Positions 78-59,616 of a DNA stretch of 64,000 nt are shown here, in pieces; the first letter of the stretch is position 1; each line of letters starts with the position of its first letter. The stretch comes from Candidatus Aenigmatarchaeota archaeon (GTDB lineage: Archaea; Aenigmatarchaeota; Aenigmatarchaeia; QMZP01): contig JACPNN010000005.1 in the NCBI GenBank assembly GCA_016185435.1, positions 22,588-86,587 of the forward strand, written 5' to 3'. Position numbers and translations under genes: made by a program. The notes under the pieces are model-generated. The model had not been told where the DNA came from. It made no database searches and was given only the letters and a program-made list of their open reading frames with translations.

Positions 78-1124
78 TCATAAGCCATCCACTGACAATT
101 TGCTGTACATCGGCCTATAATTCCCCTCCCTTCCGAACAATTCCATATCAATTCTGTTGTGCCTTGGGTTCAGCAGCCAGCCGTCCTCATACAGCATGCG
201 ATGCTGCCTCGAGGGAAAAACAAGCCTGACTGTTTTCCTGTTCGGCAGTTTTGGTTTTGAGAGAGTCGATTTCAAACCTGTTTTTTTTGCCATTGCCTCA
301 ACCTGCTCCATGAGCTGGCTGCGCTTGTCGGCCAGAGAAATGGAACGATTGCTTCTGTTTATACTTCCGCCTGCGGAAAGGCAGCCCATTATAAATCCAG
401 AGCCTTGCACCCCTGAGAAATCTATGCCAATCATATCCGGAAAACCAAGTTCACTATGCCAGTTTACAAGCCCTTGAGAAGAGACGACGTAATGCTTCGG
501 ATTTCTCTTGTCAGGCTCAAGCTTCAGGCCATATATCCTCCTGAATTCATTCTCCACATAATTCCTGTAAAACTCTTCATCGCCCCTTTTTCTCGAAAAT
601 ATCAGATTATATATTTTTTCCCTCATAATCACACAGGCACCAAAATATGTTATTCCCAGCATTATGGTTTCAGGAACGCCAAGAGCCTCAGGAATCCTTA
701 ATTCTTTCCTCAGGTCACTGTTGCTCCATTCTACATCCATCATGTCGAGGTTGCCTTTATATCCGCCGAACTTCTTCCGCAAATAATGGATTGGAGGGAA
801 GTCACTTTCTTCCTCATAGGCGACAAATTCCCTTACAATCCTGTCTCCGCGGAATTTTGCCTGCATGAGGCTGGATTGCCTGTCAACAAGCATTGCTATC
901 GCCGTGTTCGTTATATGGTCCTTTTTACCCTTGTATACATACATCTCCGCAGCCTTTATTATCCTTTCCTCTTCGGAAGCAGGAGAGAATATCGACTTCA
1001 CCTCTTTCCGGGTGAATCCGTCGGAAAGATAATACATTCTCCCTATATCTTGGCATCTGCGGTAAGCCTCTTCAGTCACGCTTATTCTGCCGTCCCTTCC
1101 TATCGGAGGCCTGTATTTTGTCAT
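78..1124 (-). CDS. hypothetical protein (348 aa), no family recognised
   Basis: Long uninterrupted ORF on the minus strand; no motif I can assign with confidence. Confidence 0.5.
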   Translation of the reverse strand: MTKYRPPIGRDGRISVTEEAYRRCQDIGRMYYLSDGFTRKEVKSIFSPASEEERIIKAAEMYVYKGKKDHITNTAIAMLVDRQSSLMQAKFRGDRIVREFVAYEEESDFPPIHYLRKKFGGYKGNLDMMDVEWSNSDLRKELRIPEALGVPETIMLGITYFGACVIMREKIYNLIFSRKRGDEEFYRNYVENEFRRIYGLKLEPDKRNPKHYVVSSQGLVNWHSELGFPDMIGIDFSGVQGSGFIMGCLSAGGSINRSNRSISLADKRSQLMEQVEAMAKKTGLKSTLSKPKLPNRKTVRLVFPSRQHRMLYEDGWLLNPRHNRIDMELFGREGNYRPMYSKLSVDGL

Positions 1125-6761: not shown

Positions 6762-9740
6762 TTGCCGCCCAATATACTTCCACATGCATGCCGGAGGATT
6801 ATGCAAAACGCATTCTATATGCTCCATCAGGATGTCCAGGCCCTGGCAGCCGAAAGGTTCGGCAGGCCGACCCCTGTCCAGCAGGCAGTGATACCAGCGC
6901 TGCTCAATAATAACGGACTCTCCGGCAAAGGGCTTTTGGTTATAGCGGAAACAGGATCCGGCAAGACAGAGGCCTGTATGCTTCCGTTATTCAGCAGGCT
7001 TGCTGAGAAGGAGCACAGGCCCATCTCCCTGCTGTACATTACCCCTCTCAGGAGCCTCAACAGGGACCTGATGAAAAGGCTCGTCTGGTGGTGCGAAAGG
7101 CTTGACATCAGCATATCCGTGAGGCATGGCGACACCTCCCAATATGAAAGGAGCATGCAGGCAGCCAACCCCGCTGAAATAATGATCCTTACCCCTGAAA
7201 CCCTTCAGGCCATCCTGGTGGGCAGGAGGATGAGGGAGCACCTGAAGAACGTCAGACATATCGTCATAGATGAAATACACGAGCTTGTCGGCAGCAAAAG
7301 GGGAAGCCAGCTTGCCGTAGGCCTGGAAAGGCTCAGGGCTGTAATAAATGAAAAAGGAGCACCTGATGCCGGAGATAAAGGAAAAGAAGAGCCTGACACA
7401 AGGCACAAAAATGCAGATGAAGAAGAAATAAATAAGGCGGATATTGAAAAAAATGAGACTGCAAAAGGGGAAAACAAGAATTCAGAGCCTTTCCAGATTA
7501 TAGGCCTTTCAGCGACAGTAGGCAATCCTGAAGAGGTGATGGCCTATCTTCATGCCGGTTCAATCCTTAACGCATTCAGCGCCAAAAGCATGCAAATTAT
7601 GGTCGAATACCCAAGAGAAAATGCCATAGACTATATCGCAAAGAAGATCGGGGAAAGCAAAAGCATGCTTATCTTTTCCAACACGCGGGAGACAGCTGAA
7701 GTGCTTTCAAGCAAGCTCAAAAGGGAGAATCTGGAGGTTGAAACACATCACTCCAGCCTTTCAAAAGAGGTGAGAGTCAAGGCTGAGGACGAATTCAAGT
7801 CAGGCAAAGTGAAAGCGATTGTATGCACATCAAGCCTGGAGCTGGGAATAGACATAGGGTCTGTAGACATGGTGCTGCAGTATGGCTCCCCCAGGCAGGT
7901 TTCAAAGCTCCTCCAAAGGGCGGGGAGGAGCGGCCACTCCTCGGGCAGGACGTCAAAGGGCCTGATAATAGCCCTTGATGCCGATGATGCTCTGGAGGCT
8001 GCTGCAATAGCAAGCCATGCAATGAAAGGGCTGATAGAGAAGGCAAGCATCTATGAGAAGCCGCTTGATGTGCTTGCCCACCAGCTTGCAGGGATGGCCT
8101 TGGACAAGTATGGCATAAGGCTGTCTGAGGCATATTCAATAGCAAAAAGGGCCTACCCCTTCAGGAACATTGAAATGCAGGAGCTTTTTGATGTCGCAAA
8201 AGCCATGGAAAGGCTGGGATTTTTCTGGATACTGGAAAGCGAAGATGGGAAACCTGAGAATTTTTCCATCAGGAGGAGGAGCAAGGCCTTTGAATACTAC
8301 AATGAAAACCTGTCCACGATACCTGTCACAAAAACTTACAGCATGATAGATGTCACAAGCAGGCAGCATGTGGCGACCCTTGATGCGGATTTCGTCTCAA
8401 TGAGCCTATACCCTTCGGCAGCATTCATCTCAAAGGGGCAGGGTTGGAAGGTAATCAGCATAGACAATGGCAAAGTTTTCGCAGAGCCCCTCGATGACAC
8501 CCAGGCAGCAGTGCCTGCGTGGCAGGGAGAGATGATACCTGTGCCGAAGGAGATAGCGAATGAGGTGGGAAAAATCAGGAGGAAAGTCAGGGAGATGCTT
8601 GAAAGCGGGACAGGCAATTCAAAGGCTGCGGCAGCAGAATATCTGGTTTCGAATTATCCTGTCAGCAAAAGCGCGGCAGAGCTGATTGCCGAGTACATTT
8701 CAAAGCAGCCGCCAGATGCGCTTGCCACTGACAGAAAGATAGTAATAGAGCACGGCATTGTGGAAAAGGAAGCATTCATGATAATCCATTCATGCAACGG
8801 CAGCAAGGCCAATGAGACTTTTGGCCGGGCTTTGGCCAGCCTGGCTCTCGGCAGGACCAGCAGCCTTGGGCTGGAAACAGATCCCTGCAGGATAATTTTC
8901 AGGCTTAAAAGGCGGTCGGACAGGTTCCATATGATGGACATGCTTGAAGGCATGTCAAAGCCGATGGTGCTGAAAGCTATCCAGCTTGGCCTGGCGGATT
9001 CAGAACTCCTGGCATGGCGTTTCAGCCATGTAGCCAGAAGATTCGGCATAATAGCAAAAGATGCCGATTATGGCAAGGTCTACCTGAAGAAGGCCGTCAA
9101 AGCCTATGTGCATCATCCGGCATACCTCGAGGCGCTCAATGAGGTGATCCAGGAAAAGCTCGACATACAGGCCGCTGAAGAGCTTGCAGAAGGCCTGAGA
9201 GATGGAACCCTTCACACGTCCAAGCATGACAGCCTTACGCCGATCGGCCTTGCAGGCATAGCAAAACGGTATGAAATAATAGCCTCTGCCCTGCCCAGCG
9301 AGGAGATACTGAGGATATTCAGGGAAAGGCTTCACAAAACAATGCTCGCCCTCGTGTGCTGCAATTGCGCCAGAATAGCCGCTATAGGAAGCGTCAAAGA
9401 ACTCCTTTCAAGGGACTTGTCCTGCAATAATTGCAGGTCAAAAATGCTTGGCATAACAAGCGTCCAAAGATCCTCCCAAATCCGGTCGGCAGTCGAAAAA
9501 AATCTTTCAAACAGGAAGCTTTCAGCAGAGGAGCAGAAGGAGCTTGACAGGCTGATGGACTCAGCAGCGCTTCTGGTAGCCTCGGGCCATCAGGCGCTGA
9601 AAGTGCTTGCAGCGAAGGGCATTGGAACCAAAACAGCGGCAAGGATACTTGCTAAAAGGAACACAGAGGACAAGCTATATGAGGATATACTGAAGGCAGA
9701 AAGGCAGTACATAAGGACCAGGGGGTTCTGGAGGGAATGA
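6762..9740 (+). CDS. lhr: Lhr-family large ATP-dependent helicase (DEAD/DEAH superfamily 2)
   Basis: Walker A (AETGSGKTEA), DEIH box (VIDEIHELVGSKRG) and a helicase C-domain (QRAGRSGH-like). ~990 aa with a Cys-rich C-terminal region. Internal low-complexity K/E/D-rich insert. Confidence 0.8.
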   Translation: MPPNILPHACRRIMQNAFYMLHQDVQALAAERFGRPTPVQQAVIPALLNNNGLSGKGLLVIAETGSGKTEACMLPLFSRLAEKEHRPISLLYITPLRSLNRDLMKRLVWWCERLDISISVRHGDTSQYERSMQAANPAEIMILTPETLQAILVGRRMREHLKNVRHIVIDEIHELVGSKRGSQLAVGLERLRAVINEKGAPDAGDKGKEEPDTRHKNADEEEINKADIEKNETAKGENKNSEPFQIIGLSATVGNPEEVMAYLHAGSILNAFSAKSMQIMVEYPRENAIDYIAKKIGESKSMLIFSNTRETAEVLSSKLKRENLEVETHHSSLSKEVRVKAEDEFKSGKVKAIVCTSSLELGIDIGSVDMVLQYGSPRQVSKLLQRAGRSGHSSGRTSKGLIIALDADDALEAAAIASHAMKGLIEKASIYEKPLDVLAHQLAGMALDKYGIRLSEAYSIAKRAYPFRNIEMQELFDVAKAMERLGFFWILESEDGKPENFSIRRRSKAFEYYNENLSTIPVTKTYSMIDVTSRQHVATLDADFVSMSLYPSAAFISKGQGWKVISIDNGKVFAEPLDDTQAAVPAWQGEMIPVPKEIANEVGKIRRKVREMLESGTGNSKAAAAEYLVSNYPVSKSAAELIAEYISKQPPDALATDRKIVIEHGIVEKEAFMIIHSCNGSKANETFGRALASLALGRTSSLGLETDPCRIIFRLKRRSDRFHMMDMLEGMSKPMVLKAIQLGLADSELLAWRFSHVARRFGIIAKDADYGKVYLKKAVKAYVHHPAYLEALNEVIQEKLDIQAAEELAEGLRDGTLHTSKHDSLTPIGLAGIAKRYEIIASALPSEEILRIFRERLHKTMLALVCCNCARIAAIGSVKELLSRDLSCNNCRSKMLGITSVQRSSQIRSAVEKNLSNRKLSAEEQKELDRLMDSAALLVASGHQALKVLAAKGIGTKTAARILAKRNTEDKLYEDILKAERQYIRTRGFWRE
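9711..9740 (+). repeat. 30-bp direct repeat copy 1 (last 30 nt of helicase gene incl. stop)
   Basis: ataaggaccagggggttctggagggaatga, identical to 10549..10578. Confidence 0.85.
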
Positions 9741-9825
9741 AGGCCTGGCGATTGCCCGGCCACCAAAATTTTTCCCCGGTCCGAGCATTTCCCGCTATTT
9801 AAATTGGGCATGCCAATATAACAAT

Positions 9826-10191
9826 ATGCGTAAGCCGAAGAGCATTATCAGTATGCAGGACATAAAAAACAGCAGAATAAGAAAAGGCGTGCGCAGCATA
9901 GTAGAGAGGCTTGAGAAGTACTACAAGCCTGAAAAAATATACCTCTTCGGCTCTGCCGCAAGGAGCGATTTCTCAGAATACAGCGACATAGATCTTCTTG
10001 TAGTAAAGGAAACAAATGAGACGAGCATACAAAGGATGTGGGAAGTATACAGGATTTTAAAGGGCAAAAGCCTGCCGGCTGATATCATTGTTCTCACACC
10101 CAGCGAACTGACAGCCAGAATAAGGTCCCAAGACCCATTTATTCTGGAGATAGTGCACCATGGGATCAATATTTATGAAAGAGTGGCTTGA
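9826..10191 (+). CDS. minimal nucleotidyltransferase (MNT) antitoxin-like protein
   Basis: GS...DxD nucleotidyltransferase motif (LFGSAARSDFSEYSDIDLLVV). Confidence 0.8.
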   Translation: MRKPKSIISMQDIKNSRIRKGVRSIVERLEKYYKPEKIYLFGSAARSDFSEYSDIDLLVVKETNETSIQRMWEVYRILKGKSLPADIIVLTPSELTARIRSQDPFILEIVHHGINIYERVA

Positions 10192-10552
10192 GAAGGCTGA
10201 GAAGGACAGCAGGGCCGCAAAAAAACTGGCATCAGACGAGCAGTTATGGGAACTTGCATGCTTTCATTGCCATCAGGCGGCGGAGAAATCCTTGAAGGCG
10301 TTCTTGGTTTTCAATAAGGGCAAGCTTCCGAGAATTCATGACCTAGAGACCTTAGCAGCCATGTGCGCCGAAATAGATAAGGATTTTGGAAGATTCGCCG
10401 ATGATGCCATATTCCTCAACCCTTTTTATATAATATCCAGATACCCTTCAGCAGCCTCAGATGTCTCCATGGATATTGTGCACGCTGCGCTGGTCGCCGC
10501 TGACACCATTATCGCAGAGGTCAGAAGGAAGATAGAAAAACAGGCCCAATAA
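10160..10552 (+). CDS. HEPN domain protein (toxin partner of MNT)
   Basis: Overlaps the MNT gene end. HEPN-like helical protein with an Rx4-6H-like region (ISRYP...H). Classic MNT-HEPN pair arrangement. Confidence 0.7.
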   Translation: MGSIFMKEWLEKAEKDSRAAKKLASDEQLWELACFHCHQAAEKSLKAFLVFNKGKLPRIHDLETLAAMCAEIDKDFGRFADDAIFLNPFYIISRYPSAASDVSMDIVHAALVAADTIIAEVRRKIEKQAQ

Positions 10553-10578
10553 GGACCAGGGGGTTCTGGAGGGAATGA
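10549..10578 (+). repeat. 30-bp direct repeat copy 2
   Basis: Identical to 9711..9740; lies immediately after the HEPN stop. Confidence 0.85.
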
Positions 10579-10596: not shown

Positions 10597-11007
10597 CTAA
10601 TGCGCTTCTCCAGGCAGCATCCTTTTGACTGTTTTTGCCCTGTCAAAATCAGAATCAAGCGAGACGACATATGTCGTCCCATTGGCCATGGCAGCCTGCA
10701 CAACCATGGCATCTTCAATGTCCAGCCTGAAGCTCTCAGAGTGCTCCAAGGCCTTTATCCTGTCCCAGAGGGAGAGCGAATAGATGACCAGCCCCTTGTA
10801 AAGCGAAAGGGATGAGAGGAACTTTTTCATGTCATGGATCTTCTTCCCCTCCCTCTCCATGACTATCAGGATGGAATCTATTTCAATGTCAGAAATTACA
10901 GCCCTGATGCTGCCTTCCATCACCCTTTCCAGAAACTCCTCACATTCCCTGTGCCTGTCCTGCTGGAGTTCGACTTCAAGAAAGACGCTTGCGTCTATAA
11001 GATACAT
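10597..11007 (-). CDS. vapC: PIN-domain ribonuclease (VapC-like toxin)
   Basis: N-terminal MYLIDASVFLE with acidic residues spaced as in the PIN fold; ~135 aa. Confidence 0.75.
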   Translation of the reverse strand: MYLIDASVFLEVELQQDRHRECEEFLERVMEGSIRAVISDIEIDSILIVMEREGKKIHDMKKFLSSLSLYKGLVIYSLSLWDRIKALEHSESFRLDIEDAMVVQAAMANGTTYVVSLDSDFDRAKTVKRMLPGEAH

Positions 11008-11293
11008 GTCTCCACCTGTCTGCCCTTATTGTATGTGCTTCATGCCTCAGGTCCTTTGCAGATTTTTTAACATGCCTCAGCATGCCCTTTATGGCTTCAA
11101 TGGGATTGGAAATGCCCATTCCTGCAGCCATTTTCCTTGCCTCTTCCATGCTGCCGCTCGAGTCTGCCCAGCTTTTCAAGGCTATTTCCGCAGCATGGCT
11201 TATCGAGCCTTTCTGGTAGCCAAACCTTTCCATTGAGGCCTTCCTGAAGCCCCTTTCGGCTTCGTCCGATATTATGACCTTCAATTGTCCCAT
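10976..11293 (-). CDS. vapB: ribbon-helix-helix type antitoxin (VapB-like)
   Basis: Small protein immediately upstream of and overlapping the PIN gene. GQLKVIISDEAERGFRKASMERFGYQKGSISHAAEIALKSW resembles RHH/CopG. Confidence 0.6.
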   Translation of the reverse strand: MGQLKVIISDEAERGFRKASMERFGYQKGSISHAAEIALKSWADSSGSMEEARKMAAGMGISNPIEAIKGMLRHVKKSAKDLRHEAHTIRADRWRHVSYRRKRLS

Positions 11294-11368: not shown

Positions 11369-11941
11369 CTATCCCCTGCTGATCCCCACCTTCAGCCTGC
11401 CGTTTTCTGTCCCGAGGTTCTCTATCTTAAGCCTATGGATTCCCTTCTGAAGGACCATGTCCCCTGCAATATCAATGGCCGGATAATGGAGTATCATTTT
11501 GAGGGCATAGCCTGCCCCAAGGCCGAATGCAAAGCTTGGCTCGATGTTGGCCAAAAACACTCCTCTCTCCATGTCGCGCATCCTGTTCTCAATGCTCCTC
11601 CAGTCGCCGCGCGAGAACACGAGCAAAGCGCTGCTGTTGGCGCGCTGCTTCAGCTTGATAGTATGCGACCCTGCAGCCTTGTCAATCCCTATGGATACAG
11701 GAGAGCCATAAAGGGAGACGAGACTCTTTAACAGGCTGCCGTCCTGGGATGAGATGTAAAAATGGGGCGGAGTAAGATAATTGTTCGATGAGACTTCATA
11801 GGCAGGCTTCTCGCCTATTCCCGGAATGTAAAGAGAGCTATTGCCATCATTGATTTTAAGCTGCACTTCAAATGCGCCGGCCAAAGCAAGAGGGATGGCC
11901 AAGGAAAAGAGCATCATGGGCATAAGATGCAGAGCCTTCAT
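11369..11941 (-). CDS. secreted hypothetical protein
   Basis: N-terminal signal peptide MKALHLMPMMLFSLAIPLALAGA. Confidence 0.5.
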   Translation of the reverse strand: MKALHLMPMMLFSLAIPLALAGAFEVQLKINDGNSSLYIPGIGEKPAYEVSSNNYLTPPHFYISSQDGSLLKSLVSLYGSPVSIGIDKAAGSHTIKLKQRANSSALLVFSRGDWRSIENRMRDMERGVFLANIEPSFAFGLGAGYALKMILHYPAIDIAGDMVLQKGIHRLKIENLGTENGRLKVGISRG

Positions 11942-19406: not shown

Positions 19407-19646
19407 ATGGGAACTATAACAGTCTCAATCAGCGATTCAGCTGAAAAGAAGCTGAGGAATGTGGCTGAAGCGCTTTATGGCAGGAGGAAAGGCTATCTTG
19501 GCCATGCCATAACAGATGCCATTGAAGAATGGGTGAGCAAGAAGGATAAGGCAGAGACAATATTTAAGGCTCTGCAGCTGATTGAGGAAGGAAGGAATAT
19601 GGGAAAGATGACATTCAAGAAGAGGGAAGACCTTTATGAGCGATAG
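19407..19646 (+). CDS. vapB: ribbon-helix-helix/CopG-type antitoxin
   Basis: MGTITVSISDSAEKKLRNVAEAL is a typical RHH N-terminal strand. Overlaps the downstream PIN gene by 11 nt. Confidence 0.6.
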   Translation: MGTITVSISDSAEKKLRNVAEALYGRRKGYLGHAITDAIEEWVSKKDKAETIFKALQLIEEGRNMGKMTFKKREDLYER

Positions 19647-20070
19647 TTGTTTTATCGACAGCAACATACTTATTTATACTGTTGACTCTTCAGAAAGGAA
19701 GAAGCATAACATTTCCAAGCAACTAGTAAAGGCCATATTCAATGGGGAAAAGAAAGCAGTTGTTTCAAACCAGATCCTTGCAGAATTCTTCTTCATCGCC
19801 ACCCATAAAATAGAAAGGCCCATTTCTCCGGAAGAGGCAGAAACTGTTGTCAATGCCATCATATTCTCTGAAAGCTGGATCAAGGTGAATTATGGATTAG
19901 GCACAATAAGGAGGGCCATGGGCCTTGTCAAAGAGCATAAGGCGAGCTTCTGGGACGCCTTGATAGGCGCCACAATGCACGAAGCCGGGGTGTTCAAAAT
20001 CTACACTGAGAATGTGAAGGATTTCCAGATGCCGGGGATAGAGGCGGAAAGCCCATTCGTACGTGTTTAG
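19636..20070 (+). CDS. vapC: PIN-domain toxin VapC
   Basis: CFIDSNILIY N-terminal PIN motif; ~144 aa. Confidence 0.75.
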   Translation: MSDSCFIDSNILIYTVDSSERKKHNISKQLVKAIFNGEKKAVVSNQILAEFFFIATHKIERPISPEEAETVVNAIIFSESWIKVNYGLGTIRRAMGLVKEHKASFWDALIGATMHEAGVFKIYTENVKDFQMPGIEAESPFVRV

Positions 20071-24274: not shown

Positions 24275-24562
24275 GCCCCAGTAGCTCAGCCGGTGGAGCG
24301 TCACCTTGGTATAAACCCTTTTCTTTTTAAGAAAAAGAAAAGCGAATGGGAGACAGAAGCATATCAGCGGATATGCTTCATAACCAAACGTGGAAAAGAA
24401 AAATAAATGCAAAGGAAGAAGAAAATGATGTAAAACAAAAAGGTGAAGGCCGCGAGTTCAAATCTCCACCCTTTCTTTTGTAAAAGAAAGGGTAGGTTAT
24501 CCAAAGAAAACAGTTACAGAGAGTGAATATAAAATATCCGAGTGAACGTCTCGCCTGGGGCT
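24275..24562 (+). tRNA. tRNA-Thr(GGU) with two introns (24312..24440 at 37/38; 24464..24549 in/after the T-loop)
   Basis: Exons reconstruct a cloverleaf: acceptor gccccag/ctggggc, D-stem gctc/gagc, anticodon stem tcacc/ggtga with loop ttGGTa|a, T-arm gcgag-ttcaaat-ctcgc. All four stems pair perfectly only after removing the two inserts. CCA is not encoded. Confidence 0.6.
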
Positions 24563-36677: not shown

Positions 36678-38018
36678 CTACAGCCTGAAATCGTAAGGAA
36701 CTGTTCCAGAAACCAGCACTTCTGTCAACCTCTTTCTGCCCCCATAGCTTTCTGAAATATTGAGCTGCGAGCATGCTGACAGCTCCCCTATATAGCTCCT
36801 GCATTCCTGCTTTGTTATCCCGGCCTCTTCAACCCACTTCGGGTACACGAAAAGACTGTACCCCCTGCTGTTTTCCGGATACCTGCCCCTCACCTCTTCA
36901 GCCATTTCAGCTCCCCCCATCTTCCGCAGCAGCCACCCCACCTCCGTCCTGAAACGGTTTTCAAGGCCGCCCCTCCTCGCTCCATACCCTCTGGATGCCA
37001 TCTTTTCAAGAGATGCCGCAATCCCATTGGCCTTCCTTGGACTGGAGCTGTATGATGCCGATTTTCCAAGGAAAAGCATGCTTTTTGCGGCCTTATGGGC
37101 ATCAGGCACTTTGCCCGAATCCCTCTGTCTGCCCATCCAGCTGCCGAGATATAAGGGAAAAAGGCTGAACATTACTGATATTTTTCTGCCATTGTATTCG
37201 CTGGTTTCCAGTTCCGACAAGGGAAAATGTTCCTTGATGCGCCTCCTCTGCAGCATGTCCAATCGGCTGCCTTTAGCGCTCTTATATTCCACTTTCGTGA
37301 CAGCAGCCGGAAATCTGCCGAGGGAAAACATTTCCAGGAATCCCTCCCATCCGTTTCCAGCACTGAAGTGGAGATGCGGAGTGCCATGTTGTAGACCGGC
37401 AAATCCGTGCCTGTCAAAGAGCCCCTGGAAATACGCCGGCTCTTTGCCATTTTCAGGAACGAAAGCTATCCTATAACTCCCGCTCCCCTGCCTTTCAGCC
37501 AGCCCTTTCTTATCCAGCGCCTTGAGGAATGCCTGCTTTATCCCGCCCACAGGCGTGGCAAGCAGGCTGTTGGTACCAGGTGTAAGCTGCGTCCTGCACA
37601 TTCTTTCGTGCCGGGGCAGGATGCCTGCCAGCTGCACAAGCTGGGGATATATGTATGCTGTGAAGATATCATCGCCGTTTTTCATCCACCTGTGCCCCCT
37701 GACACAATAGAAGCTCCTGCTGGCGCTTTCTCCTAGGAGATACATTCTCCCTGGAGTTATTTCAATATCCTCAGGCCTGTACAGATCTGGCTCCCTCTCG
37801 CCACTGGCCCACCTTGATATTGTCGAATAATCAATTCCAGTGAGTTTCCTGACTTTATCATGGCTCTCTTTCAGCAATGCCCGGAAGAACGGCTCGAAAA
37901 ATGCAAACCTTCTGTTCTCCCTCAAGAACAGTTCCATGCCCAGGGATTTCTGGGCGTTCTCTCTTTCCTTCGGATTCAGCCAGTCTATATCCTCATACAG
38001 ATGCCTTTCAGATGCCAT
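36678..38018 (-). CDS. hypothetical protein (446 aa) with an HTH-like segment
   Basis: LTGIDYSTISRWASGE resembles the HTH of some transposase/regulator families. No catalytic motif recognised. Confidence 0.45.
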   Translation of the reverse strand: MASERHLYEDIDWLNPKERENAQKSLGMELFLRENRRFAFFEPFFRALLKESHDKVRKLTGIDYSTISRWASGEREPDLYRPEDIEITPGRMYLLGESASRSFYCVRGHRWMKNGDDIFTAYIYPQLVQLAGILPRHERMCRTQLTPGTNSLLATPVGGIKQAFLKALDKKGLAERQGSGSYRIAFVPENGKEPAYFQGLFDRHGFAGLQHGTPHLHFSAGNGWEGFLEMFSLGRFPAAVTKVEYKSAKGSRLDMLQRRRIKEHFPLSELETSEYNGRKISVMFSLFPLYLGSWMGRQRDSGKVPDAHKAAKSMLFLGKSASYSSSPRKANGIAASLEKMASRGYGARRGGLENRFRTEVGWLLRKMGGAEMAEEVRGRYPENSRGYSLFVYPKWVEEAGITKQECRSYIGELSACSQLNISESYGGRKRLTEVLVSGTVPYDFRL

Positions 38019-39038: not shown

Positions 39039-39091
39039 AAATACATATCATGTTCAGTGTATTAAAAGCCAAACAAATATTGTCTGCTTCC

Positions 39092-39384
39092 TTTCCCCTG
39101 GAACCTCTCAAAAACAGTCGACAAAACCTTTTATTGGTTTTATAAGCCCAAAAGGTTTTATCCAAAAGATGTTTTTTGGGTCGAGCCTTTTGACGCTTAC
39201 GGTTCAAAAAGGGTCGCAAAAAGTTTTATCCAAAAACTGAACCCTTCTACCGTCCTAATCCCTTCTGAAATCTCTGGAATACAGTCGACAAGTCAATCCT
39301 GTACTTGCCTTCGGCAAGCCTTATGACAAGCGGTTTCTGGGCGAACAGCTTGGTGACATCTATATTGTACTTGCCCGGTTTAAG
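39092..39384. repeat. long direct repeat copy 1 (~231 bp shared with 40858..41088, plus a 68-bp internal insert 39168..39235). Includes an orphan 3' gene fragment (C-terminal 46 codons of the Zn-ribbon gene, minus strand 39247..39384)
   Basis: Near-identical alignment with 40858..41088. Copy 1 lacks the rest of the gene. Confidence 0.85.
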
Positions 39385-39484
39385 AGGCATTTGAATAAAT
39401 TGATTCTTCAAGAACATGCTTATGGCATCCGATAGCTTTATAAATATAACCTCAAATTATATTTTGTTAAAGAGGTGATATAAT

Positions 39485-39688
39485 ATGAAGGCTTTCTCAA
39501 AGGTGAAAACCGTTGGAGGCAGTCTCATGGTAAGGATACCCATGGAGCTTGCAAGAGAGGAAGGAATAACTTCTGGCCAGACTGTCGAGATAGATGTGAA
39601 GAAAATGAGGAAAAGCTACTTCGGCATTCTCAGGGGCATAGGAAGTTTCACAGAAGAAGATGAAAAAACAATGGATACGCATGACTAG
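39485..39688 (+). CDS. vapB: AbrB/SpoVT-type antitoxin (VapB)
   Basis: VKTVGGSLMVRIPMELAREEGITSGQTVEIDV is a swapped-hairpin AbrB/MazE fold. Confidence 0.65.
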   Translation: MKAFSKVKTVGGSLMVRIPMELAREEGITSGQTVEIDVKKMRKSYFGILRGIGSFTEEDEKTMDTHD

Positions 39689-40061
39689 ATATATAATTGA
39701 TGCATACGCTTGGATAGCTTACTTGGAGGGGGGCAACCCAAAAGCCAAGGACATAATAGAGACTAGGGAAAACGAACTTGTAACTCCGATTCTAGTCTAT
39801 GCTGAAGTTATAAGCAAAGTGCAGAGAAAGGGAATGGACTACAGAATTGCTTCTGAAGCCATACTCAGCAATTCAACAATCGCATATATTAATGTCGAAC
39901 TTGCTTCCAAGGCTGCCCTTTTCCATGCAGAAACAAGGCAGAAAGTCAGGGATTTTTCCTTGCCTGATGCATTCGTTCTTGCAACGGCCAGAGAACTCAA
40001 TGGCAGAATATTAACAGGCGATATGCATTTCAAGGACTTTAAAGAGGCTGTGATGATATAG
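39660..40061 (+). CDS. vapC: PIN-domain toxin VapC
   Basis: YIIDAYAWIAYLEG N-terminal PIN motif; overlaps the antitoxin. Confidence 0.75.
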   Translation: MKKQWIRMTRYIIDAYAWIAYLEGGNPKAKDIIETRENELVTPILVYAEVISKVQRKGMDYRIASEAILSNSTIAYINVELASKAALFHAETRQKVRDFSLPDAFVLATARELNGRILTGDMHFKDFKEAVMI

Positions 40062-40079
40062 GCTGATTTATGTGTTCTT

Positions 40080-40499
40080 TCATTTGGCTCTCTGGCTGAG
40101 ACTTCCAATGATATCATTAAATATTTTCTGTCCGACAGTGCCAATGAAGATCCAAATAGCAGATGTAATTGATCCCTCAATGAGCATAGCTATATAGCCT
40201 GAAGCATCGGCGACTAATGCAAAAAGACGTGCAACAAAGAAGACCAAGAGCTCCCAACTGATGGTATTTGCCACGGTTAGAGGATACAACACAGAAAGCA
40301 TGGCATCAATTATCGGATTGCAAGGAACAACATCTGGACAGCTTGCACCATAACCAAGGCTGTAAAAGAACATTCCATATGAAATAGTGCTGTAAAGAAA
40401 GCCAGCTATAGCATCAAATTTATTTTCTTTTAAGAAGCCGATAACAGTTTTCGTAAGCAATGGCATTTTATCCGTAGTAGGTGCAAGTAATTTTCCCAT
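40080..40499 (-). CDS. small membrane protein
   Basis: Three hydrophobic helices. Confidence 0.4.
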   Translation of the reverse strand: MGKLLAPTTDKMPLLTKTVIGFLKENKFDAIAGFLYSTISYGMFFYSLGYGASCPDVVPCNPIIDAMLSVLYPLTVANTISWELLVFFVARLFALVADASGYIAMLIEGSITSAIWIFIGTVGQKIFNDIIGSLSQRAK

Positions 40500-40773
40500 C
40501 TGGCAACGTAGCTTTCTTTATGATTTTGGTTACATTTTCAAGATTAACCCCGAATTTATCTGCAACGCTAACAACATCATTATCAAAGCGCCTTCGTTCA
40601 AGATAAGCCCTGCAATCATCAAAGCTGGTTAAATCATCTGTGCATGAGTCGCAATCAAGAGAGATAAACCTCTGAACCCTAAGGGGAAATTTAGAGCCGC
40701 TAAAGACAACAATAATGGCTACAGATAATAGGGCAGCAATTACCAGGAGCAGAAACATATAGTTTTTTTTCAT
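40468..40773 (-). CDS. small secreted Cys-containing protein
   Basis: Signal peptide MKKNYMFLLLVIAALLSVAIIVVF. Confidence 0.4.
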   Translation of the reverse strand: MKKNYMFLLLVIAALLSVAIIVVFSGSKFPLRVQRFISLDCDSCTDDLTSFDDCRAYLERRRFDNDVVSVADKFGVNLENVTKIIKKATLPDGKITCTYYG

Positions 40774-40857
40774 GATTTATTGTTGTTTGGCCAAGCATAA
40801 AAGTATATAAGAACCAAAAGAATCAGCTTTATTTAGCATAACAGTCTCTGAACCTTA

Positions 40858-41088
40858 TTTCCCCTTCCTCCGGAACCTCTCAAACACAGTCGACAAAACC
40901 TTTTATTGGTTTTATAAGCCCAAAAGGTTTTATCCAAAAACTGAGCCCTTCTACCGTCCTAATCCCTTCTGAAATCTCTGGAATACAGTCGACAGATCAA
41001 TCCTGTACTTGCCTTCGGCAAGCCTTATGACAAGCGGTTTCTGGGCGAACAGCTTGGTGACATCTATATTGTACTTGCCCGGTTTAAG
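40858..41088. repeat. long direct repeat copy 2 (overlaps the 3' end of the Zn-ribbon gene)
   Basis: See 39092..39384. Confidence 0.85.
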
Positions 41089-41355
41089 GACCCTGATGGC
41101 CTCGAGGTCCAGTATCACTGTTTCCTGGCCGGCCTCACTTTCCTCAGGCTCCTCCTCCTCCACTATCTCCCTTATGTCCTTCTCGATCGTTTCAATCTCC
41201 TGCTTGTTCAGCTTGAGCCTCTCCTGTTCCACAATCTCGATAAGGTCCTGCCTGACAAAGAAGAAGAACTTGCTGCCACATGAATCGCAGCCGTTAAGCA
41301 GATAAGGCGCATCATCAGGGTGTATCTTGCCGCACTTCGCGCATGTGTTGGGCAT
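40951..41355 (-). CDS. Zn-ribbon protein
   Basis: CAKCGK...CDSCGSK double CxxC. Confidence 0.5.
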   Translation of the reverse strand: MPNTCAKCGKIHPDDAPYLLNGCDSCGSKFFFFVRQDLIEIVEQERLKLNKQEIETIEKDIREIVEEEEPEESEAGQETVILDLEAIRVLKPGKYNIDVTKLFAQKPLVIRLAEGKYRIDLSTVFQRFQKGLGR

Positions 41356-41409: not shown

Positions 41410-41745
41410 CTAAACCTTCCTTTTTATCCCGATTTCCCCTTCACCCAAGAGCTCTATTTCCACTTTCTGACCTTCTTTGAAACCGATGCCTGCAGCTTCC
41501 TGCGGCAGTGTGACACCTATTGAATTGCCTATTCTCAATATCTTCCTGGTTGTTTTGATTTTCCTGGCCTCTTCCCTCAGCCTGAGCAGTTCTTTCGCTG
41601 TATCTAAAGGAAGCCCTGTATCTCCGCATTTTTCGCACACATTGGCGTTGATAAGGAAGCCCTCGATGAAAGCCTTCTGCACGTTGATTGTCCCTCCGCA
41701 CCTGCAGATGAGGCCTTTCCTCCTCAGATTTTTCATGTTTTCCAT
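41410..41745 (-). CDS. Zn-ribbon + AbrB/SpoVT-like domain protein (putative antitoxin/regulator)
   Basis: CRCGG...CEKCGD then ILRIGNSIGVTLPQEAAGIGFKEGQKVEIEL (swapped-hairpin). Confidence 0.5.
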   Translation of the reverse strand: MENMKNLRRKGLICRCGGTINVQKAFIEGFLINANVCEKCGDTGLPLDTAKELLRLREEARKIKTTRKILRIGNSIGVTLPQEAAGIGFKEGQKVEIELLGEGEIGIKRKV

Positions 41746-41746
41746 A

Positions 41747-42034
41747 TTATATCCTCCCTTCTTCCTTGATGATTGTAACTATTCTGATGAAATTTGGATG
41801 GAGACCGGCTATGACAGTGTATGTGGCGTTCTCCTTGCCGTAATAGAGCCTGAAGCATACATTCTGCCTTTTCTCATCGGATTTTTCAGGCACAGGCCTG
41901 CCCCTTCTTATGGTTTCCTCAGCCATGTCAATGTCAGCCGGTGTCAGGTTTTTATGCTTCAAGGCATGCAGACTGATGTCGATATACACTGTCTGCCTGT
42001 CATACCTCTGCAAGGCCTCCGGTATCCAATCCAT
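41747..42034 (-). CDS. small hypothetical protein, possible toxin partner
   Basis: Immediately upstream of and co-directional with the AbrB-like gene (1-nt gap). Confidence 0.35.
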   Translation of the reverse strand: MDWIPEALQRYDRQTVYIDISLHALKHKNLTPADIDMAEETIRRGRPVPEKSDEKRQNVCFRLYYGKENATYTVIAGLHPNFIRIVTIIKEEGRI

Positions 42035-44685: not shown

Positions 44686-44900
44686 GGGGTCATGAGGTTA
44701 ATGGCAACCTGGCGGGCTCCAGGCCAGCCTTTCTTTCTCGAAAGAAAGGCTAGGTTACCCAAAGAAAGGAAATACAGATGTTATGCTCGGGAGCATTGAG
44801 CCGACGAGGGAGCTGCCATATGCGGCGAGCATGATGACAGATACCCAAGGCTGTGAAAGGAAGACACCCGTACATGGGAGTTCGAATCTCCCTGACCCCA
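44686..44900 (+). tRNA. tRNA-Trp(CCA) with a 143-nt intron at 37/38 (44723..44865)
   Basis: Acceptor ggggtca/tgacccc, D-stem aggt/acct, anticodon stem gcggg/cccgt with loop ctCCAg|a, T-arm gggag-ttcgaat-ctccc. The intron contains the palindrome cctttctttctcgaaagaaagg and an ATGATGA (box C-like) motif. Confidence 0.65.
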
Positions 44901-45048
44901 TTGCGCACCCCTTTCTTTTAGAAAAAGAAAGGGTACCGCCCTATCCAAAGAAAACCAATTACCTCCACTGAACTTGACATTTCCTGCTCGATATCGGTAA
45001 TTCCTTTTTCTGGATAACCTACCCTCTTTTTTGGAAAAAGAGGGTGGT

Positions 45049-45082
45049 GTACATGGGAGTTCGAATCTCCCTGACCCCATTC
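45049..45082 (+). pseudogene. orphan duplicate of the tRNA-Trp 3' half (34 nt identical to 44870..44903), preceded by an intron-type palindrome
   Basis: gtacatgggagttcgaatctccctgaccccatt repeated. A third partial copy (tctccccattgcgca) lies at 45146..45158. Confidence 0.7.
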
Positions 45083-49153: not shown

Positions 49154-49567
49154 TCAGCCATCTATGACATTTATCCCCTCTGTCTTCCTGAAAGCAGTGT
49201 CAAAGGTTGCTATGGTTTTAATTCCGAACTTCTCAACAAAGATCCTGCTTGTGCAGTCGGTGAATGACATCCTCTCCTTGTTGCCCTTCCGGAAGAGCTC
49301 CCATGCCGCATAGAGAACGGCATTATTTACAACGGCTATTTGCACTGAATCCATTATATATTGACCCATCCTGACAGCATGGTCAAGGCTCTTTGTTCTG
49401 ACGAGCATGACTGTCACGGCCTCGTCAAAAATATAGTCTGAAGTCATTGGCTTTCCATAGTTTCCAGATGCAATATCAGAAATAATCTTTTTCGCCTTCC
49501 CATGGTTCTGGTCTGCCTCGTTGTAAAAGGAGACAAATACGCTGGTATCGATAAAGATTGTCATCAT
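49154..49567 (-). CDS. vapC: PIN-domain toxin VapC
   Basis: IFIDTSVFVSFYNEAD PIN N-terminus. Confidence 0.75.
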   Translation of the reverse strand: MMTIFIDTSVFVSFYNEADQNHGKAKKIISDIASGNYGKPMTSDYIFDEAVTVMLVRTKSLDHAVRMGQYIMDSVQIAVVNNAVLYAAWELFRKGNKERMSFTDCTSRIFVEKFGIKTIATFDTAFRKTEGINVIDG

Positions 49568-53155: not shown

Positions 53156-53632
53156 ATGCTGGAAATCAGCTTCATATTTAAGCAAAGAAACAAACAACTA
53201 TCCATGGAAACTCTAAATGTCAGGATGAAGCTGCTGAAGAAGTTCCTAAGAACGCAGGATTTTGTCAGGGCTGTCTATCTTTTCGGTTCCATGGCAACGG
53301 GAAAATCGTCAAGGCACAGCGACATAGATATAGCTGTTCTCTTTGACAGGAAACTGACAAGGCAGGAAAGGAATGCGAAAGAGCTATTTCTTATAAGCTC
53401 GCTCACCTCAATGCTCGGCAGGGAAGATCTCGATGTAGTCGTGATGAACGATGCTCCGCTCCTCCTGAATTTCAACATAATAAGGGATGGGAGGATTCTT
53501 TATTGTAAAAGCAGCCGCGAGAAAATACAGAACGAGGTAAGAATCATGTCATCTTACCTTGATAGGGATTATTACGATTCCCTGTTCATAAAAAGGGATT
53601 TTGGCAGGATAAGAAAAGAGGGGATACTGTGA
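53156..53632 (+). CDS. nucleotidyltransferase (MntA-like antitoxin)
   Basis: LFGSMATGKSSRHSDIDIAVLFD. Confidence 0.8.
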   Translation: MLEISFIFKQRNKQLSMETLNVRMKLLKKFLRTQDFVRAVYLFGSMATGKSSRHSDIDIAVLFDRKLTRQERNAKELFLISSLTSMLGREDLDVVVMNDAPLLLNFNIIRDGRILYCKSSREKIQNEVRIMSSYLDRDYYDSLFIKRDFGRIRKEGIL

Positions 53633-54051
53633 TAAAAGAGATACACGCCAAGCTGAGAGAGCTAGAAAGGCACACAAAGTTTCTCCAAGAATGCACAAAG
53701 TATTCTGCCAAACAGCTTGAGGAAGATATGCTGGCAAGAGGCGCTGTAGAGCGGTATCTTCAGCTTGCAATAGAAATGGTTATCGAAATCTCCGAGATTC
53801 TTATTGCAGGGAAGGGCTTCAGGAAGCCGGAGAAATACAGGGATGCAATCCTTATCCTCGGTGAGGAAGGTATCCTGCCGAAGAGCTTTGCTGAAAAATT
53901 TGCGCCTTCGGCAGGCTTCAGAAACATCCTCGTTCACCATTATTCCGATGTTGACGTGCACAAACTGCACAGCTTTCTGAAAAATGACATCAAAGATTTT
54001 GACTCCTTTGCGAGATACATAGTAAAATATCTTGAGAAGCAACTCAAATAA
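53629..54051 (+). CDS. HepT/DUF86 HEPN-family toxin
   Basis: Rx4HxY motif (RNILVHHY). Overlaps the MntA stop. Confidence 0.75.
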   Translation: MIKEIHAKLRELERHTKFLQECTKYSAKQLEEDMLARGAVERYLQLAIEMVIEISEILIAGKGFRKPEKYRDAILILGEEGILPKSFAEKFAPSAGFRNILVHHYSDVDVHKLHSFLKNDIKDFDSFARYIVKYLEKQLK

Positions 54052-55263: not shown

Positions 55264-55421
55264 CAGGCCCGACGGGATTTTCGTCTTGGGTATTTTCCAG
55301 ATAGATGTTTGTATTTCCTTTTTCTGGATACCCTACCCTCTTTTTTGGAAAAAGAGGGTGGTGTCGAACCCGTATCCCCTGCTCCGGAGGCAGGTGTTCT
55401 ATCCGACTGAACTACGGGCCT
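55264..55421 (-). tRNA. tRNA-Arg(CCG) with an 86-nt T-loop intron (55279..55364)
   Basis: On the minus strand: acceptor aggcccg/cgggcct, D gttc/gaac, anticodon stem cctgc/gcagg with loop ctCCGga, T-stem acggg/cccgt, and T-loop ttcga|at restored only after excising the insert. The insert begins caccaccctctttttccaaaaaagagggtagggtatccagaaaaagg. Confidence 0.5.
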
Positions 55422-55473
55422 AATATACCTTTCTCTGCTTCTTATATCCCTTTGCGGCCTAAATTATACTATT

Positions 55474-55762
55474 GCGGGGGTTCCCGAGAGGCCAAAGGGG
55501 CGGGACTTAAGAAAACCTTTTCTTTTCCAAAAAGAAAAGGTTTTATCCAAAAGAAAACAAATGAAAAACAAGCGCTTGCGGAAAAGAAAACAACATACAG
55601 AAATCTTAAGTATTGAGCGAAAGCTGTGAAATAAGAGATCCCGTGACTTAGTGTCTTCGCAGGTTCGATAGGCTTTCTTTTCAGAAAAGAAAGCCCATAC
55701 GGCAAAGAAAACATAATACAAAAACTGAAACAATAACCAGAACGAAAATCCTGCCTCCCGCA
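55474..55762 (+). tRNA. tRNA-Leu(UAA) with two introns (55512..55637 at 37/38; 55669..55747 in the T-loop)
   Basis: Acceptor gcggggg/ctcccgc (one G-U), D ccc/ggg with long D-loop, anticodon stem cggga/tcccg with loop ctTAAg|a, long variable arm (tgacttagtgtcttc), T-arm gcagg-ttcga|at-cctgc. Confidence 0.6.
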
Positions 55763-59456: not shown

Positions 59457-59495
59457 TTAAGCCTTTAAAAGCCAGCACATATTAATCTTATCCAT

Positions 59496-59512
59496 GGCCT
59501 CGTTGGTGTAAT
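59496..59512 (+). pseudogene. orphan duplicate of the first 17 nt of tRNA-His, fused to an intron-type palindrome module
   Basis: ggcctcgttggtgtaat is identical to 59617..59633, followed directly by ccgccctctttttccaaaaaagagggcaggttgcccagaaaaagg. Confidence 0.6.
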
Positions 59513-59616
59513 CCGCCCTCTTTTTCCAAAAAAGAGGGCAGGTTGCCCAGAAAAAGGAATTACATGTACTAAACATGCAATTTCAACTAATACGAGACCT
59601 GAACAATAAGGCATAT

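What the first reader, a model, noticed from the sequence alone, without database searches (positions are those of the whole stretch)
9711..10578. MNT-HEPN toxin-antitoxin cassette inserted at the helicase 3' end, flanked by a perfect 30-bp direct repeat
The final 30 nt of the Lhr-like helicase gene, including its stop (9711-9740), are repeated exactly at 10549-10578, directly after the HEPN gene. The 808-bp segment between them carries only the MNT and HEPN genes. This is the pattern of a site-specifically integrated mini-cassette that rebuilds the 3' end of its target gene. It is a rarely documented mobility mode for MNT/HEPN modules.
Basis: seen in the sequence. Interest (0 to 1): 0.6.

Follow-up and report, generated by a model that had tools for sequence, protein, structure and literature searches.

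The report
Gene cassette docked at helicase stop codon
A two-gene toxin-antitoxin-type module sits as a small inserted cassette exactly behind the stop codon of a helicase gene in a DPANN-type archaeon, and related archaea carry other cassettes, even four in a row, at the same spot, each closed by a copy of the helicase gene's last codons.

Summary
The last 30 nt of the Lhr-type helicase gene (9711-9740, stop included) recur exactly at 10549-10578, and the 808 bp between them hold only an MNT and a HEPN gene. The HEPN stop codon lies inside the second copy.

The comparative evidence supports insertion at a recurrent site:
- A syntenic Aenigmatarchaeota contig (L099) has the helicase abutting the ortholog of the window's 190-aa gene with nothing in between.
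- In three other contigs of the same helicase clade the helicase 3' end is also repeated downstream, around different cargo. L019 and L022 carry an AAA_14/DUF4143 ATPase. L030 carries four tandem cassettes, including HicAB.
- Similarity always ends at the stop codon, while its 5' reach varies from 15 to about 90 nt.
- The orphan copies in L030 differ from the resident end mostly by synonymous changes, so they derive from functional helicase ends.
- All four occupied sites share TTCTGGARGGA. None of 19 empty sites does.

No integrase or transposase was found in the cassettes or in the 64-kb window. The enzyme is therefore unknown: either a recombinase acting in trans or host homologous recombination.

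This is a new variant of gene-3'-end integration with tandem accretion, integron-like in layout but not an integron.

The parts
6801..9740 (+). Lhr-type helicase gene (979 aa from the ATG; the ORF opens at TTG 6762). It is the target gene.
   Evidence: Pfam hits DEAD, Helicase_C, WH_Lhr and DEAD_assoc. The C-terminal motif AERQYxxTRGFW is conserved in distant homologs.
9711..9740 (+). Left repeat copy (attL-like): the last 9 helicase codons (IRTRGFWRE) plus TGA. It contains the core TTCTGGAGGGA at 9726-9736.
   Evidence: The core is shared with L019, L022 and L030.
9741..9825 (+). Non-coding leader of the cassette. It holds the hairpin GGCCTGGCGATTGCCCGGCC (9742-9761), a T5 run (9769-9773), and the TATA-like ATTTAAAT (9797-9804) 22 nt before the MNT ATG.
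   Evidence: Sequence read and fold. The promoter and terminator roles are inferred from archaeal consensus, not tested.
9826..10191 (+). MNT (minimal nucleotidyltransferase), 121 aa, with motif GSAARSDFSEYSDIDL.
   Evidence: PF01909 1.2e-12 and PF18765 2.9e-12. NCBIfam MntA scores 32 bits, below the cutoff of 60. PADLOC PDC-S09 8e-12.
10175..10552 (+). HEPN-domain protein, 125 aa (130 aa from the alternative ATG at 10160). It overlaps the MNT gene, and its stop TAA lies inside the right repeat.
   Evidence: PF05168 6.5e-27. Gene calls of 125 and 130 aa appear in Logan contigs.
10549..10578 (+). Right repeat copy (attR-like orphan helicase end). It is non-coding except for the HEPN stop.
10597..11293 (-). 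Neighbouring PIN (10597-11007) plus a 105-aa partner (10976-11293). This is a second toxin-antitoxin-like pair, also absent from the syntenic relative. It is not bounded by a helicase-end copy.
   Evidence: PF01850 4e-11. Absent in L099. No orphan copy follows it.
11369..11941 (-). 190-aa secreted-type protein. It marks the far edge of the site, because its ortholog directly abuts the helicase stop in L099.
   Evidence: BLASTP 39% identity over 183 aa, E 1.8e-40, to the L099 198-aa protein.

Best explanation
The MNT-HEPN pair is a small, integrase-less gene cassette of 838 bp (counting one repeat copy). It is integrated directly behind the stop codon of the Lhr-type helicase gene of a DPANN (Aenigmatarchaeota-like) archaeon. 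The cassette carries a copy of the helicase's last codons at its far end. Recombination between that copy and the resident helicase end (Campbell-type integration of a circular or looped-out DNA) places the cassette after the gene and leaves the helicase reading frame intact. It also leaves one repeat copy on each side. The same site is used repeatedly in this helicase clade. New cassettes can stack there, giving an array in which each cassette is closed by an orphan helicase end. Cargo is of toxin-antitoxin or defence-candidate type, which would stabilise the insert. Shown here: the repeat, the recurrence at the same site, empty sites, the tandem array, the coding-type divergence of the orphans, and a shared 11-nt core. 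Inferred: the circular intermediate and the enzyme. My preferred reading (about 0.5) is a sequence-specific recombinase supplied in trans that acts on the core TTCTGGARGGA. The alternative is host homologous recombination on the short repeat.
For: - The repeat is exact and not due to chance. It ends exactly at the helicase stop, and there is no similarity beyond it.
- The repeated peptide is the conserved helicase C-terminus.
- Empty syntenic site: in L099 the helicase stop overlaps the convergent ortholog of the window's 190-aa gene, followed by FKBP26 and FtsZ as in the window.
- The helicase end is repeated downstream in L022 (26 nt exact, ending at the stop, 1475 bp apart), L019 (78 nt at 91%) and L030.
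- L030 has four orphan copies, at 7470-7493, 8017-8070, 8793-8851 and 9400-9441.
- The cargo differs: an AAA_14+DUF4143 ATPase (PADLOC PDC-S01 1e-48), HicA/HicB, a 117+89-aa pair, a SLOG-like protein and an unknown 129-aa ORF.
- None of the roughly 60 more distant helicase loci has an orphan copy.
- The L030 orphans differ from the resident end by about 20 synonymous and 9 non-synonymous codon changes. The binomial p is 1.6e-8 against the 0.8 non-synonymous fraction expected for random changes.
- All 4 occupied sites end in TTCTGGARGGA-N-T-stop, against 0 of 19 empty clade sites. Fisher p is 5e-4 when counting three independent lineages.
- The occupied lineages are not each other's nearest relatives.
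Against: - No integrase, transposase or other recombinase was found in the cassettes, in about 60 ORFs of the window or in the L030 flanks.
- No second copy of this MNT-HEPN cassette exists in the databases. The next HEPN relative is 41% identical.
- No empty site or circular junction was seen in the same population.
- No exact or peptide-equivalent copy of the repeat was found in JGI metagenomes or viral contigs.
- The repeat has no convincing inverted-repeat architecture of a recombinase core site. It forms a 6-bp hairpin with z -1.7.
- MNT and HEPN composition is not atypical for the window.
- The shared core could be a consequence of integration, with the element-borne end now serving the gene, rather than a requirement for it.
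Confidence: 0.75

Rival explanations
1. Homology-facilitated illegitimate recombination, with no dedicated site. DNA from a related strain enters, pairs through the conserved helicase gene, and is joined at its other end by microhomology inside the recipient's last helicase codons. The donor's downstream genes are imported, and the recipient's own gene end is left behind as an orphan.
For: The junction between HEPN and the right repeat has a 4-nt overlap, ATAA, that supplies the HEPN stop. The 5' reach of the orphans varies from 15 to about 90 nt. Similarity ends at the stop codon simply because the donor and recipient downstream regions differ. No recombinase was found. A second cassette in the window, behind OapC, has a much longer repeat of about 230-295 nt that extends past the stop codon.
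Against: This model does not predict the shared core TTCTGGARGGA at all occupied sites and its absence from all 19 empty sites. It does not explain why all six orphans are shorter than 100 nt. It does not explain why in L022 the last 26 nt stay identical to the resident end while the orphan's 5' part decays. It also requires donors that already carry each cargo directly behind their helicase.
Confidence: 0.2
2. Transposition with a long target-site duplication. A transposon-like element cut the target with a 30-nt stagger, and gap repair duplicated the target.
For: Direct repeats flank the insert. A weak 6-bp inverted match, GGCCTG/CAGGCC, lies near the ends (read).
Against: There is no transposase and there are no real terminal inverted repeats. 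Repeat lengths differ widely between cases, from 15 to about 90 nt. The orphans in L030 and L019 are diverged alleles with mostly synonymous changes, which a target duplication cannot produce. HEPN would have had to lack its own stop codon.
Confidence: 0.02
3. An old local tandem duplication of the helicase end, followed by unrelated gene gain between the copies. No mobility is involved.
For: L019 has non-identical repeats at 91%. The L019 and L022 inserts are inherited vertically, at 81.5% identity along helicase plus cassette.
Against: The same structure arose in at least three separate lineages with different cargo. There is a four-cassette array with coding-constrained orphan alleles. The window repeat is 30/30 identical with sharp edges. 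Sister lineages have empty sites.
Confidence: 0.02
4. Assembly artefact. An empty chromosomal site plus a separate small circle or tandem element sharing the 30-mer was joined by the assembler.
For: The repeat length of 30 equals k-1 for k=31 assemblers. From memory, the Logan assemblies use k=31.
Against: Contigs from at least five runs, and the 64-kb window itself, pass through both copies in the same way with no breaks. Analogous structures exist in unrelated JGI assemblies.
Confidence: 0.01

Closest known systems
CIMEs (cis-mobilizable elements) and tandem accretion at the 3' end of a protein gene, as described for streptococcal ICE/IME families (review PMC5704250). The fda gene and 27-bp repeat example is from my memory.
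   Same: Short direct repeats (attL/attR) are present, one overlapping and completing the 3' end of a protein-coding gene. The element has no integrase of its own. Further elements are added at the same site, giving tandem structures separated by att copies.
   Different: CIMEs are decayed ICEs or IMEs of several kb in bacteria, with a known cognate tyrosine integrase. Here the units are 0.45-1.45 kb, carry one gene or one gene pair, and occur in DPANN archaea. There is no trace of a decayed larger element and no known recombinase.
[quoted passage not shown]
   Same: In that survey, 14 of 68 elements integrate into the 3'-distal part of protein genes. Their att repeats run from 8 to more than 25 bp (29-69 bp in Crenarchaeota). 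The gene end is replaced or restored, and arrays form by re-use of a site.
   Different: Those elements are proviruses, casposons, ICE-like elements or cryptic elements that usually carry an integrase. A helicase gene is not among the listed targets. Sub-kb cassettes without a recombinase are not described.
Integrons and integrase-less attC clusters (CALINs)
   Same: The layout matches: an array of small cassettes of one or two genes, each ending in a recombination-site copy and inserted next to a fixed docking site. The cargo is rich in toxin-antitoxin and defence genes (bioRxiv 10.1101/2024.07.02.601686 for integron defence cargo).
   Different: There is no IntI, no attC hairpin and no GTTRRRY core. 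The repeated site is a mimic of a host gene's coding end. Cassette orientation is mixed, and the cassettes have their own promoter-like leaders.
tRNA/tmRNA-gene integration by tyrosine integrases (from memory: Williams 2002)
   Same: The identity block between element and target runs from the crossover region to the 3' end of the gene, so the gene is restored. Displaced 3' fragments accumulate when several elements stack.
   Different: The target here is a protein-coding end, so the displaced copies keep a reading frame and show synonymous divergence. The elements are minimal.

Membership tests
MNT-HEPN (type II/VII) toxin-antitoxin module | Minimal nucleotidyltransferase with the G-S...D-x-D active-site motif | tested here: met
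   PF01909 1.2e-12 and PF18765 2.9e-12. The motif GSAARSDFSEYSDIDL is visible in the translation. NCBIfam MntA scores only 32 bits against a cutoff of 60.
MNT-HEPN (type II/VII) toxin-antitoxin module | HEPN-domain partner encoded directly downstream, overlapping the MNT gene | tested here: met
   PF05168 6.5e-27. The genes overlap by 17 or 32 nt.
MNT-HEPN (type II/VII) toxin-antitoxin module | Catalytic R-x(4-6)-H RNase motif in HEPN | tested here: inconclusive
   No R-x4-6-H is obvious by eye in the 125-aa sequence. Only RIH and SRYP were seen. No alignment to characterised toxins was made.
MNT-HEPN (type II/VII) toxin-antitoxin module | Toxicity of HEPN and its neutralisation by MNT | not testable with these tools
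   This needs expression experiments.
Integrated element of CIME type (att-flanked, integrase-less) | Direct repeats at both ends, one completing the 3' end of the target gene | tested here: met
Integrated element of CIME type (att-flanked, integrase-less) | Empty site in related genomes | tested here: met
   There is a syntenic empty site in L099 and 19 empty clade loci. No empty site was found in the same species.
Integrated element of CIME type (att-flanked, integrase-less) | Re-use of the same site by other elements (accretion) | tested here: met
   L019 and L022 carry one cassette and L030 carries four in tandem.
Integrated element of CIME type (att-flanked, integrase-less) | A cognate integrase elsewhere that recombines the att sites, and descent from a larger ICE/IME | tested here: not met
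   No integrase was found in the window or the flanks. No remnants of a larger element were seen. Whole genomes were not available.
Integron | IntI integrase next to the attI docking site | tested here: not met
   There is no Phage_integrase hit in the window ORFs or around the L030 array.
Integron | attC sites: imperfect palindromes with RYYYAAC / GTTRRRY cores | tested here: not met
   The repeat is a coding-end mimic. Its GTTCTGG does not fit GTTRRRY, and the hairpin is weak, with z -1.7.
Transposon / insertion sequence | Transposase, terminal inverted repeats and a fixed-length target duplication | tested here: not met
   There is no transposase. Only a 6-bp inverted match is present. Repeat length varies from 15 to about 90 nt, and the copies are diverged.

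The most novel reading that the evidence does not exclude
DPANN archaea of this clade possess an integron-like gene-capture platform. A recombinase encoded elsewhere in the genome, or on a helper element, recognises the 11-15-nt end of the Lhr-type helicase gene (TTCTGGARGGA-N-T-stop). It inserts and excises minimal cassettes of one or two defence or toxin-antitoxin genes, each carrying a mimic of that gene end as its only mobility determinant. This builds exchangeable arrays behind the helicase.
Probability: 0.35. Interest if true: 0.85.

Novelty: new variant of a known kind. Interest (0 to 1): 0.68.

Why it matters
How toxin-antitoxin and small defence genes move between genomes, when they are not riding on plasmids, phages, transposons or integrons, is poorly understood, especially in archaea. 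This locus gives a concrete and testable answer for one lineage. The units are minimal cassettes whose only mobility feature is a short copy of a host gene's last codons, and they dock behind that gene's stop codon and can stack into arrays. It defines a short candidate recombination site (TTCTGGARGGA), a set of occupied and empty sites, and a clear search target: the recombinase. It also offers a marker, orphan helicase ends, for finding such cassettes and new defence candidates in DPANN metagenomes.

Tried and rejected
- **Same-population variants.** Exact-protein look-ups of HEPN, MNT, PIN and the helicase returned only the same filled arrangement at 100% identity.
- **Close relatives of the helicase.** The genome-contig scan with the full helicase gave one 35% partial hit, to Hodarchaeum. 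The first protein search gave at most 42% identity.
- **Other copies of the repeat.** A codon-degenerate pattern in JGI metagenomes gave 0 hits. The 27-mer in viral contigs gave 0 hits. Helicase C-terminus relatives in viral contigs gave none.
- **Other copies of the cassette.** The HEPN search found only itself, and the next hit was at 41%.
- **Residual similarity beyond the repeat.** None was found.
- **Foreign composition.** MNT and HEPN GC and GC3 are within 1 SD of the window genes.
- **Known RNA or tRNA target at the site.** None was found.
- **Recombinase-site-like or attC-like structure in the repeat.** It was not significant.
- **Bacterial-type promoter and terminator scan.** It was uninformative.
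- **Integrase or transposase in the window.** There were none among about 60 ORFs.
- **A further orphan copy behind the neighbouring PIN pair.** None was found.
- **An inverted 'NRRFW' match in L100.** I judged it coincidental, because it lies inside another gene.
- **Literature.** Searches for a helicase-gene att site or repeat-flanked MNT-HEPN cassettes found nothing specific.
Full report
**Observation**

The 30-mer ATAAGGACCAGGGGGTTCTGGAGGGAATGA occurs exactly twice in the window, at 9711-9740 and 10549-10578. It has no further match with up to three mismatches, and none appeared in 100 shuffles.

The left copy is in frame and covers exactly ten codons: the last nine residues of the helicase (IRTRGFWRE) and its TGA. 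The 808 bp between the copies carry:
- an 85-nt leader, with a GC hairpin, a T5 run and a TATA-like ATTTAAAT 22 nt before the ATG;
- an MNT gene (9826-10191);
- an overlapping HEPN gene (10175 or 10160 to 10552).

One detail differs from the finding. The HEPN stop codon TAA is positions 2-4 of the right copy, so the repeat overlaps HEPN by four bases. Nothing beyond the 30 nt is similar on either side.

**Reality of the structure**

Contigs assembled separately from at least five sequencing runs span both copies and are 100% identical to the window. Further contigs cover the right copy. No contig of this population shows an empty site.

**Whose sequence is repeated**

The helicase has the Lhr architecture: DEAD, Helicase_C, WH_Lhr and DEAD_assoc. 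Its C-terminal motif AERQY-x-x-TRGFW is conserved in distant homologs, including Nitrososphaeria. The repeat is therefore the native, selected end of the helicase gene, and the copy behind HEPN is the extra one.

**Searches that gave nothing**

- HEPN has no close relative in the protein collection; the next hit is 41% identical.
- The helicase has none above 42%.
- The species is not in the genome collection.
- Neither the repeat nor any codon-equivalent of it occurs in JGI metagenomes or viral contigs.
- MNT and HEPN composition is ordinary for the window.
- No integrase or transposase domain was found in about 60 ORFs of the window.

**Comparative result**

An alignment-based scan of metagenome contigs returned 80 loci with the helicase C-terminus, at 28-41% identity. 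I located each stop codon and searched downstream for copies of the gene's last 60 nt. I also searched with an nhmmer profile and a peptide-motif scan.

Three loci, all in the clade closest to the window, have the helicase end repeated downstream.
- **L022.** A 26-nt exact repeat ends exactly at the stop codon and recurs 1475 bp further on. It encloses one gene on the opposite strand, an AAA_14+DUF4143 ATPase that matches the PADLOC candidate family PDC-S01 at 1e-48.
- **L019.** This locus has the same cargo, and helicase plus cassette align with L022 at 81.5%. Its repeat is 78 nt at 91%.
- **L030.** Four cassettes lie in tandem behind the stop codon at 7026, each closed by an orphan helicase end with the frame and a stop codon preserved:

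| Cassette | Cargo | Closing orphan | Orphan coordinates |
|---|---|---|---|
| 1 | 129-aa ORF | R1 | 7470-7493 |
| 2 | HicA+HicB | R1b (LKGEIEYAKHKRFWRD*) | 8017-8070 |
| 3 | 117+89-aa gene pair | R2 (DVLKNEIEYAKNKRFWRE*) | 8793-8851 |
| 4 | 169-aa SLOG/DprA-like protein (weak ShosA/PsyrA-like PADLOC hits) | R3 (QVEYAKNKRFWRY*) | 9400-9441 |

In all cases the similarity ends at the stop codon, while its 5' reach varies from 15-18 nt to about 90 nt. None of the roughly 60 more distant loci has an orphan copy.

**Nature of the orphan copies**

In L030 the orphans differ from the resident helicase end by about 20 synonymous and 9 non-synonymous codon changes. For random changes about 80% would be non-synonymous, which gives a binomial p of 1.6e-8.

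The orphans are therefore alleles that evolved as working helicase ends. They either arrived with cassettes from related genomes or were displaced by them. They are not decaying local duplicates.

In L022 the 5' part of the orphan shows the opposite pattern, with 5 non-synonymous changes and 1 synonymous change. Yet its last 26 nt are identical to the resident end. This suggests that the terminal segment is kept uniform by recombination.

**Empty sites**

A profile search named clade members as Candidatus Aenigmatarchaeota. One of them, L099 (GCA_043809885.1), is syntenic with the window. Its helicase stop overlaps the stop of a convergent 198-aa gene. That gene is the ortholog of the window's 190-aa gene at 11369-11941 (39% identity, E 1.8e-40). 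FKBP26 and FtsZ follow, as in the window. Relative to L099, both the MNT-HEPN cassette and the neighbouring PIN+105-aa pair are extra in the window.

Nineteen clade loci with at least 700 nt downstream have no orphan copy. L020, at 78% nucleotide identity in the helicase to L019 and L022, lacks their cassette.

**Site specificity**

The four occupied genes end in TTCTGGAGGGAATGA, TTCTGGAGGGAGTGA, TTCTGGAAGGATTGA and TTCTGGAGGGATTAG. They share TTCTGGARGGA, and none of the 19 empty sites has this core. Fisher p is 5e-4 when L019 and L022 are counted once.

The occupied lineages are only 38-50% identical to each other in the helicase C-terminus, and they are interleaved with empty ones. One caveat applies. 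After integration the working gene end may be element-derived, so the core may mark the cassettes rather than the naive target.

**Mechanism**

The data fit integration by recombination between a helicase-end copy on the incoming DNA and the resident gene end. This keeps the gene intact, duplicates the site and allows stacking.

I cannot decide the enzyme.
- *For a sequence-specific recombinase in trans:* the fixed site in three lineages, the shared core, an 18-nt orphan being sufficient, and the terminal homogenisation in L022.
- *Against it:* no recombinase was found, and there is no clear core-site symmetry.
- *Alternatives:* host homologous recombination on short homology, or homology-facilitated illegitimate recombination anchored on the helicase gene. 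The ATAA overlap at the HEPN junction would be the microhomology in that case. These models explain the variable repeat lengths but not the core or the short orphan sizes.
- *Effectively excluded:* transposition with target duplication, an old local duplication, and assembly error.

**Comparison with known systems**

Integration into the 3'-distal part of protein genes, with short repeats and site re-use, is documented for archaeal elements (PMC6563490). Integrase-less att-flanked remnants that take part in tandem accretion are known as CIMEs in streptococci (PMC5704250).

The layout also resembles an integron array, but the defining integron features were tested and not met. There is no IntI and no attC-type site, and cassette orientation is mixed.

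Four features differ from all of these: the unit size (0.45-1.45 kb, one gene or gene pair), the absence of any recombination gene or larger-element remnant, the host group (DPANN), and the recombination site being a mimic of a helicase's coding end. I found no paper describing this.

**Verdict**

- It is a new variant of gene-3'-end integration and accretion.
- There is a reasonable chance (about one in three) that it reflects a dedicated cassette-capture system.

Noticed in passing
window 39090-41088: A second repeat-flanked cassette. About 230-295 nt, comprising the last ~47 codons of an OapC-like gene (40951-41355, minus strand) plus ~90 nt downstream, are repeated at 39090-39384 at 95-98% identity. 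The repeats enclose a VapB/MazE-like gene (39485-39688), a PIN gene (39660-40061) and two small low-GC3 membrane ORFs (40080-40773). The logic is the same (gene end duplicated beyond an inserted toxin-antitoxin segment), but here the repeat extends past the stop codon.
   Followed up: partly
window 44686-45081, also 59494-59684, 24336-24520, 55294-55720, 59944-60036: Likely split tRNA genes. ARAGORN and Rfam find no tRNA in the 64 kb. However, a 5' piece at 44686 (GGGGTCATGAGGTTAATGGCAACC...) joined to a 3' piece (GTACATGGGAGTTCGAATCTCCCTGACCCCA, present twice at 44870-44902 and 45049-45081) gives a valid cloverleaf, for example tRNA-Trp(CCA). The pieces are flanked by hairpin repeats such as CCCTCTTTTTTGGAAAAAGAGGG, whose copies are reverse complements of each other at distant sites.
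   Followed up: partly
window 39154-39235: The left copy of the OapC repeat carries a 68-nt extra piece bounded by a 13-nt direct repeat, GTTTTATCCAAAA. The motif AAAAGGTTTTATCCAAAAGA also occurs at 55535-55554.
   Followed up: no
window 10597-11293, 19636-20070, 41410-42034, 49154-49567, 53156-54051: The window is rich in toxin-antitoxin-type genes besides the two repeat-flanked ones: PIN+105 aa, a solitary PIN, MazE-like+DUF4258, another PIN, and an MNT+HepT pair directly upstream of a class I tRNA synthetase. None of these has flanking direct repeats above chance.
   Followed up: partly
window 78-1124 and 36678-38018 (minus strand): There are two free-standing ORFs of LAGLIDADG type. The first matches PF14528 at 7e-6. 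The second (446 aa, no Pfam or NCBIfam hit) shows an HTH-like STISRWASGER and a GLFDRHG motif by eye. Their function is unknown, and no link to the cassettes was shown.
   Followed up: no
L019 3158-3607 and L022 2538-2882: L019 and L022 share the ATPase cassette, but the DNA after the orphan helicase end is unrelated between them: an HD-domain-like ORF in one and a 94-aa ORF in the other. This hints that different further cassettes follow. Both contigs end too soon to tell.
   Followed up: no
L001-L015 (Logan contigs of the window locus), L017: Logan contigs run through both copies of the 30-nt repeat without breaking, whereas the contig carrying OapC (L017) ends inside the longer repeat. From memory, these assemblies use k=31. 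If so, a 30-nt repeat is just below the length that breaks the graph. Unbroken traversal would then imply that no empty-site or circle junction was abundant in those samples.
   Followed up: no
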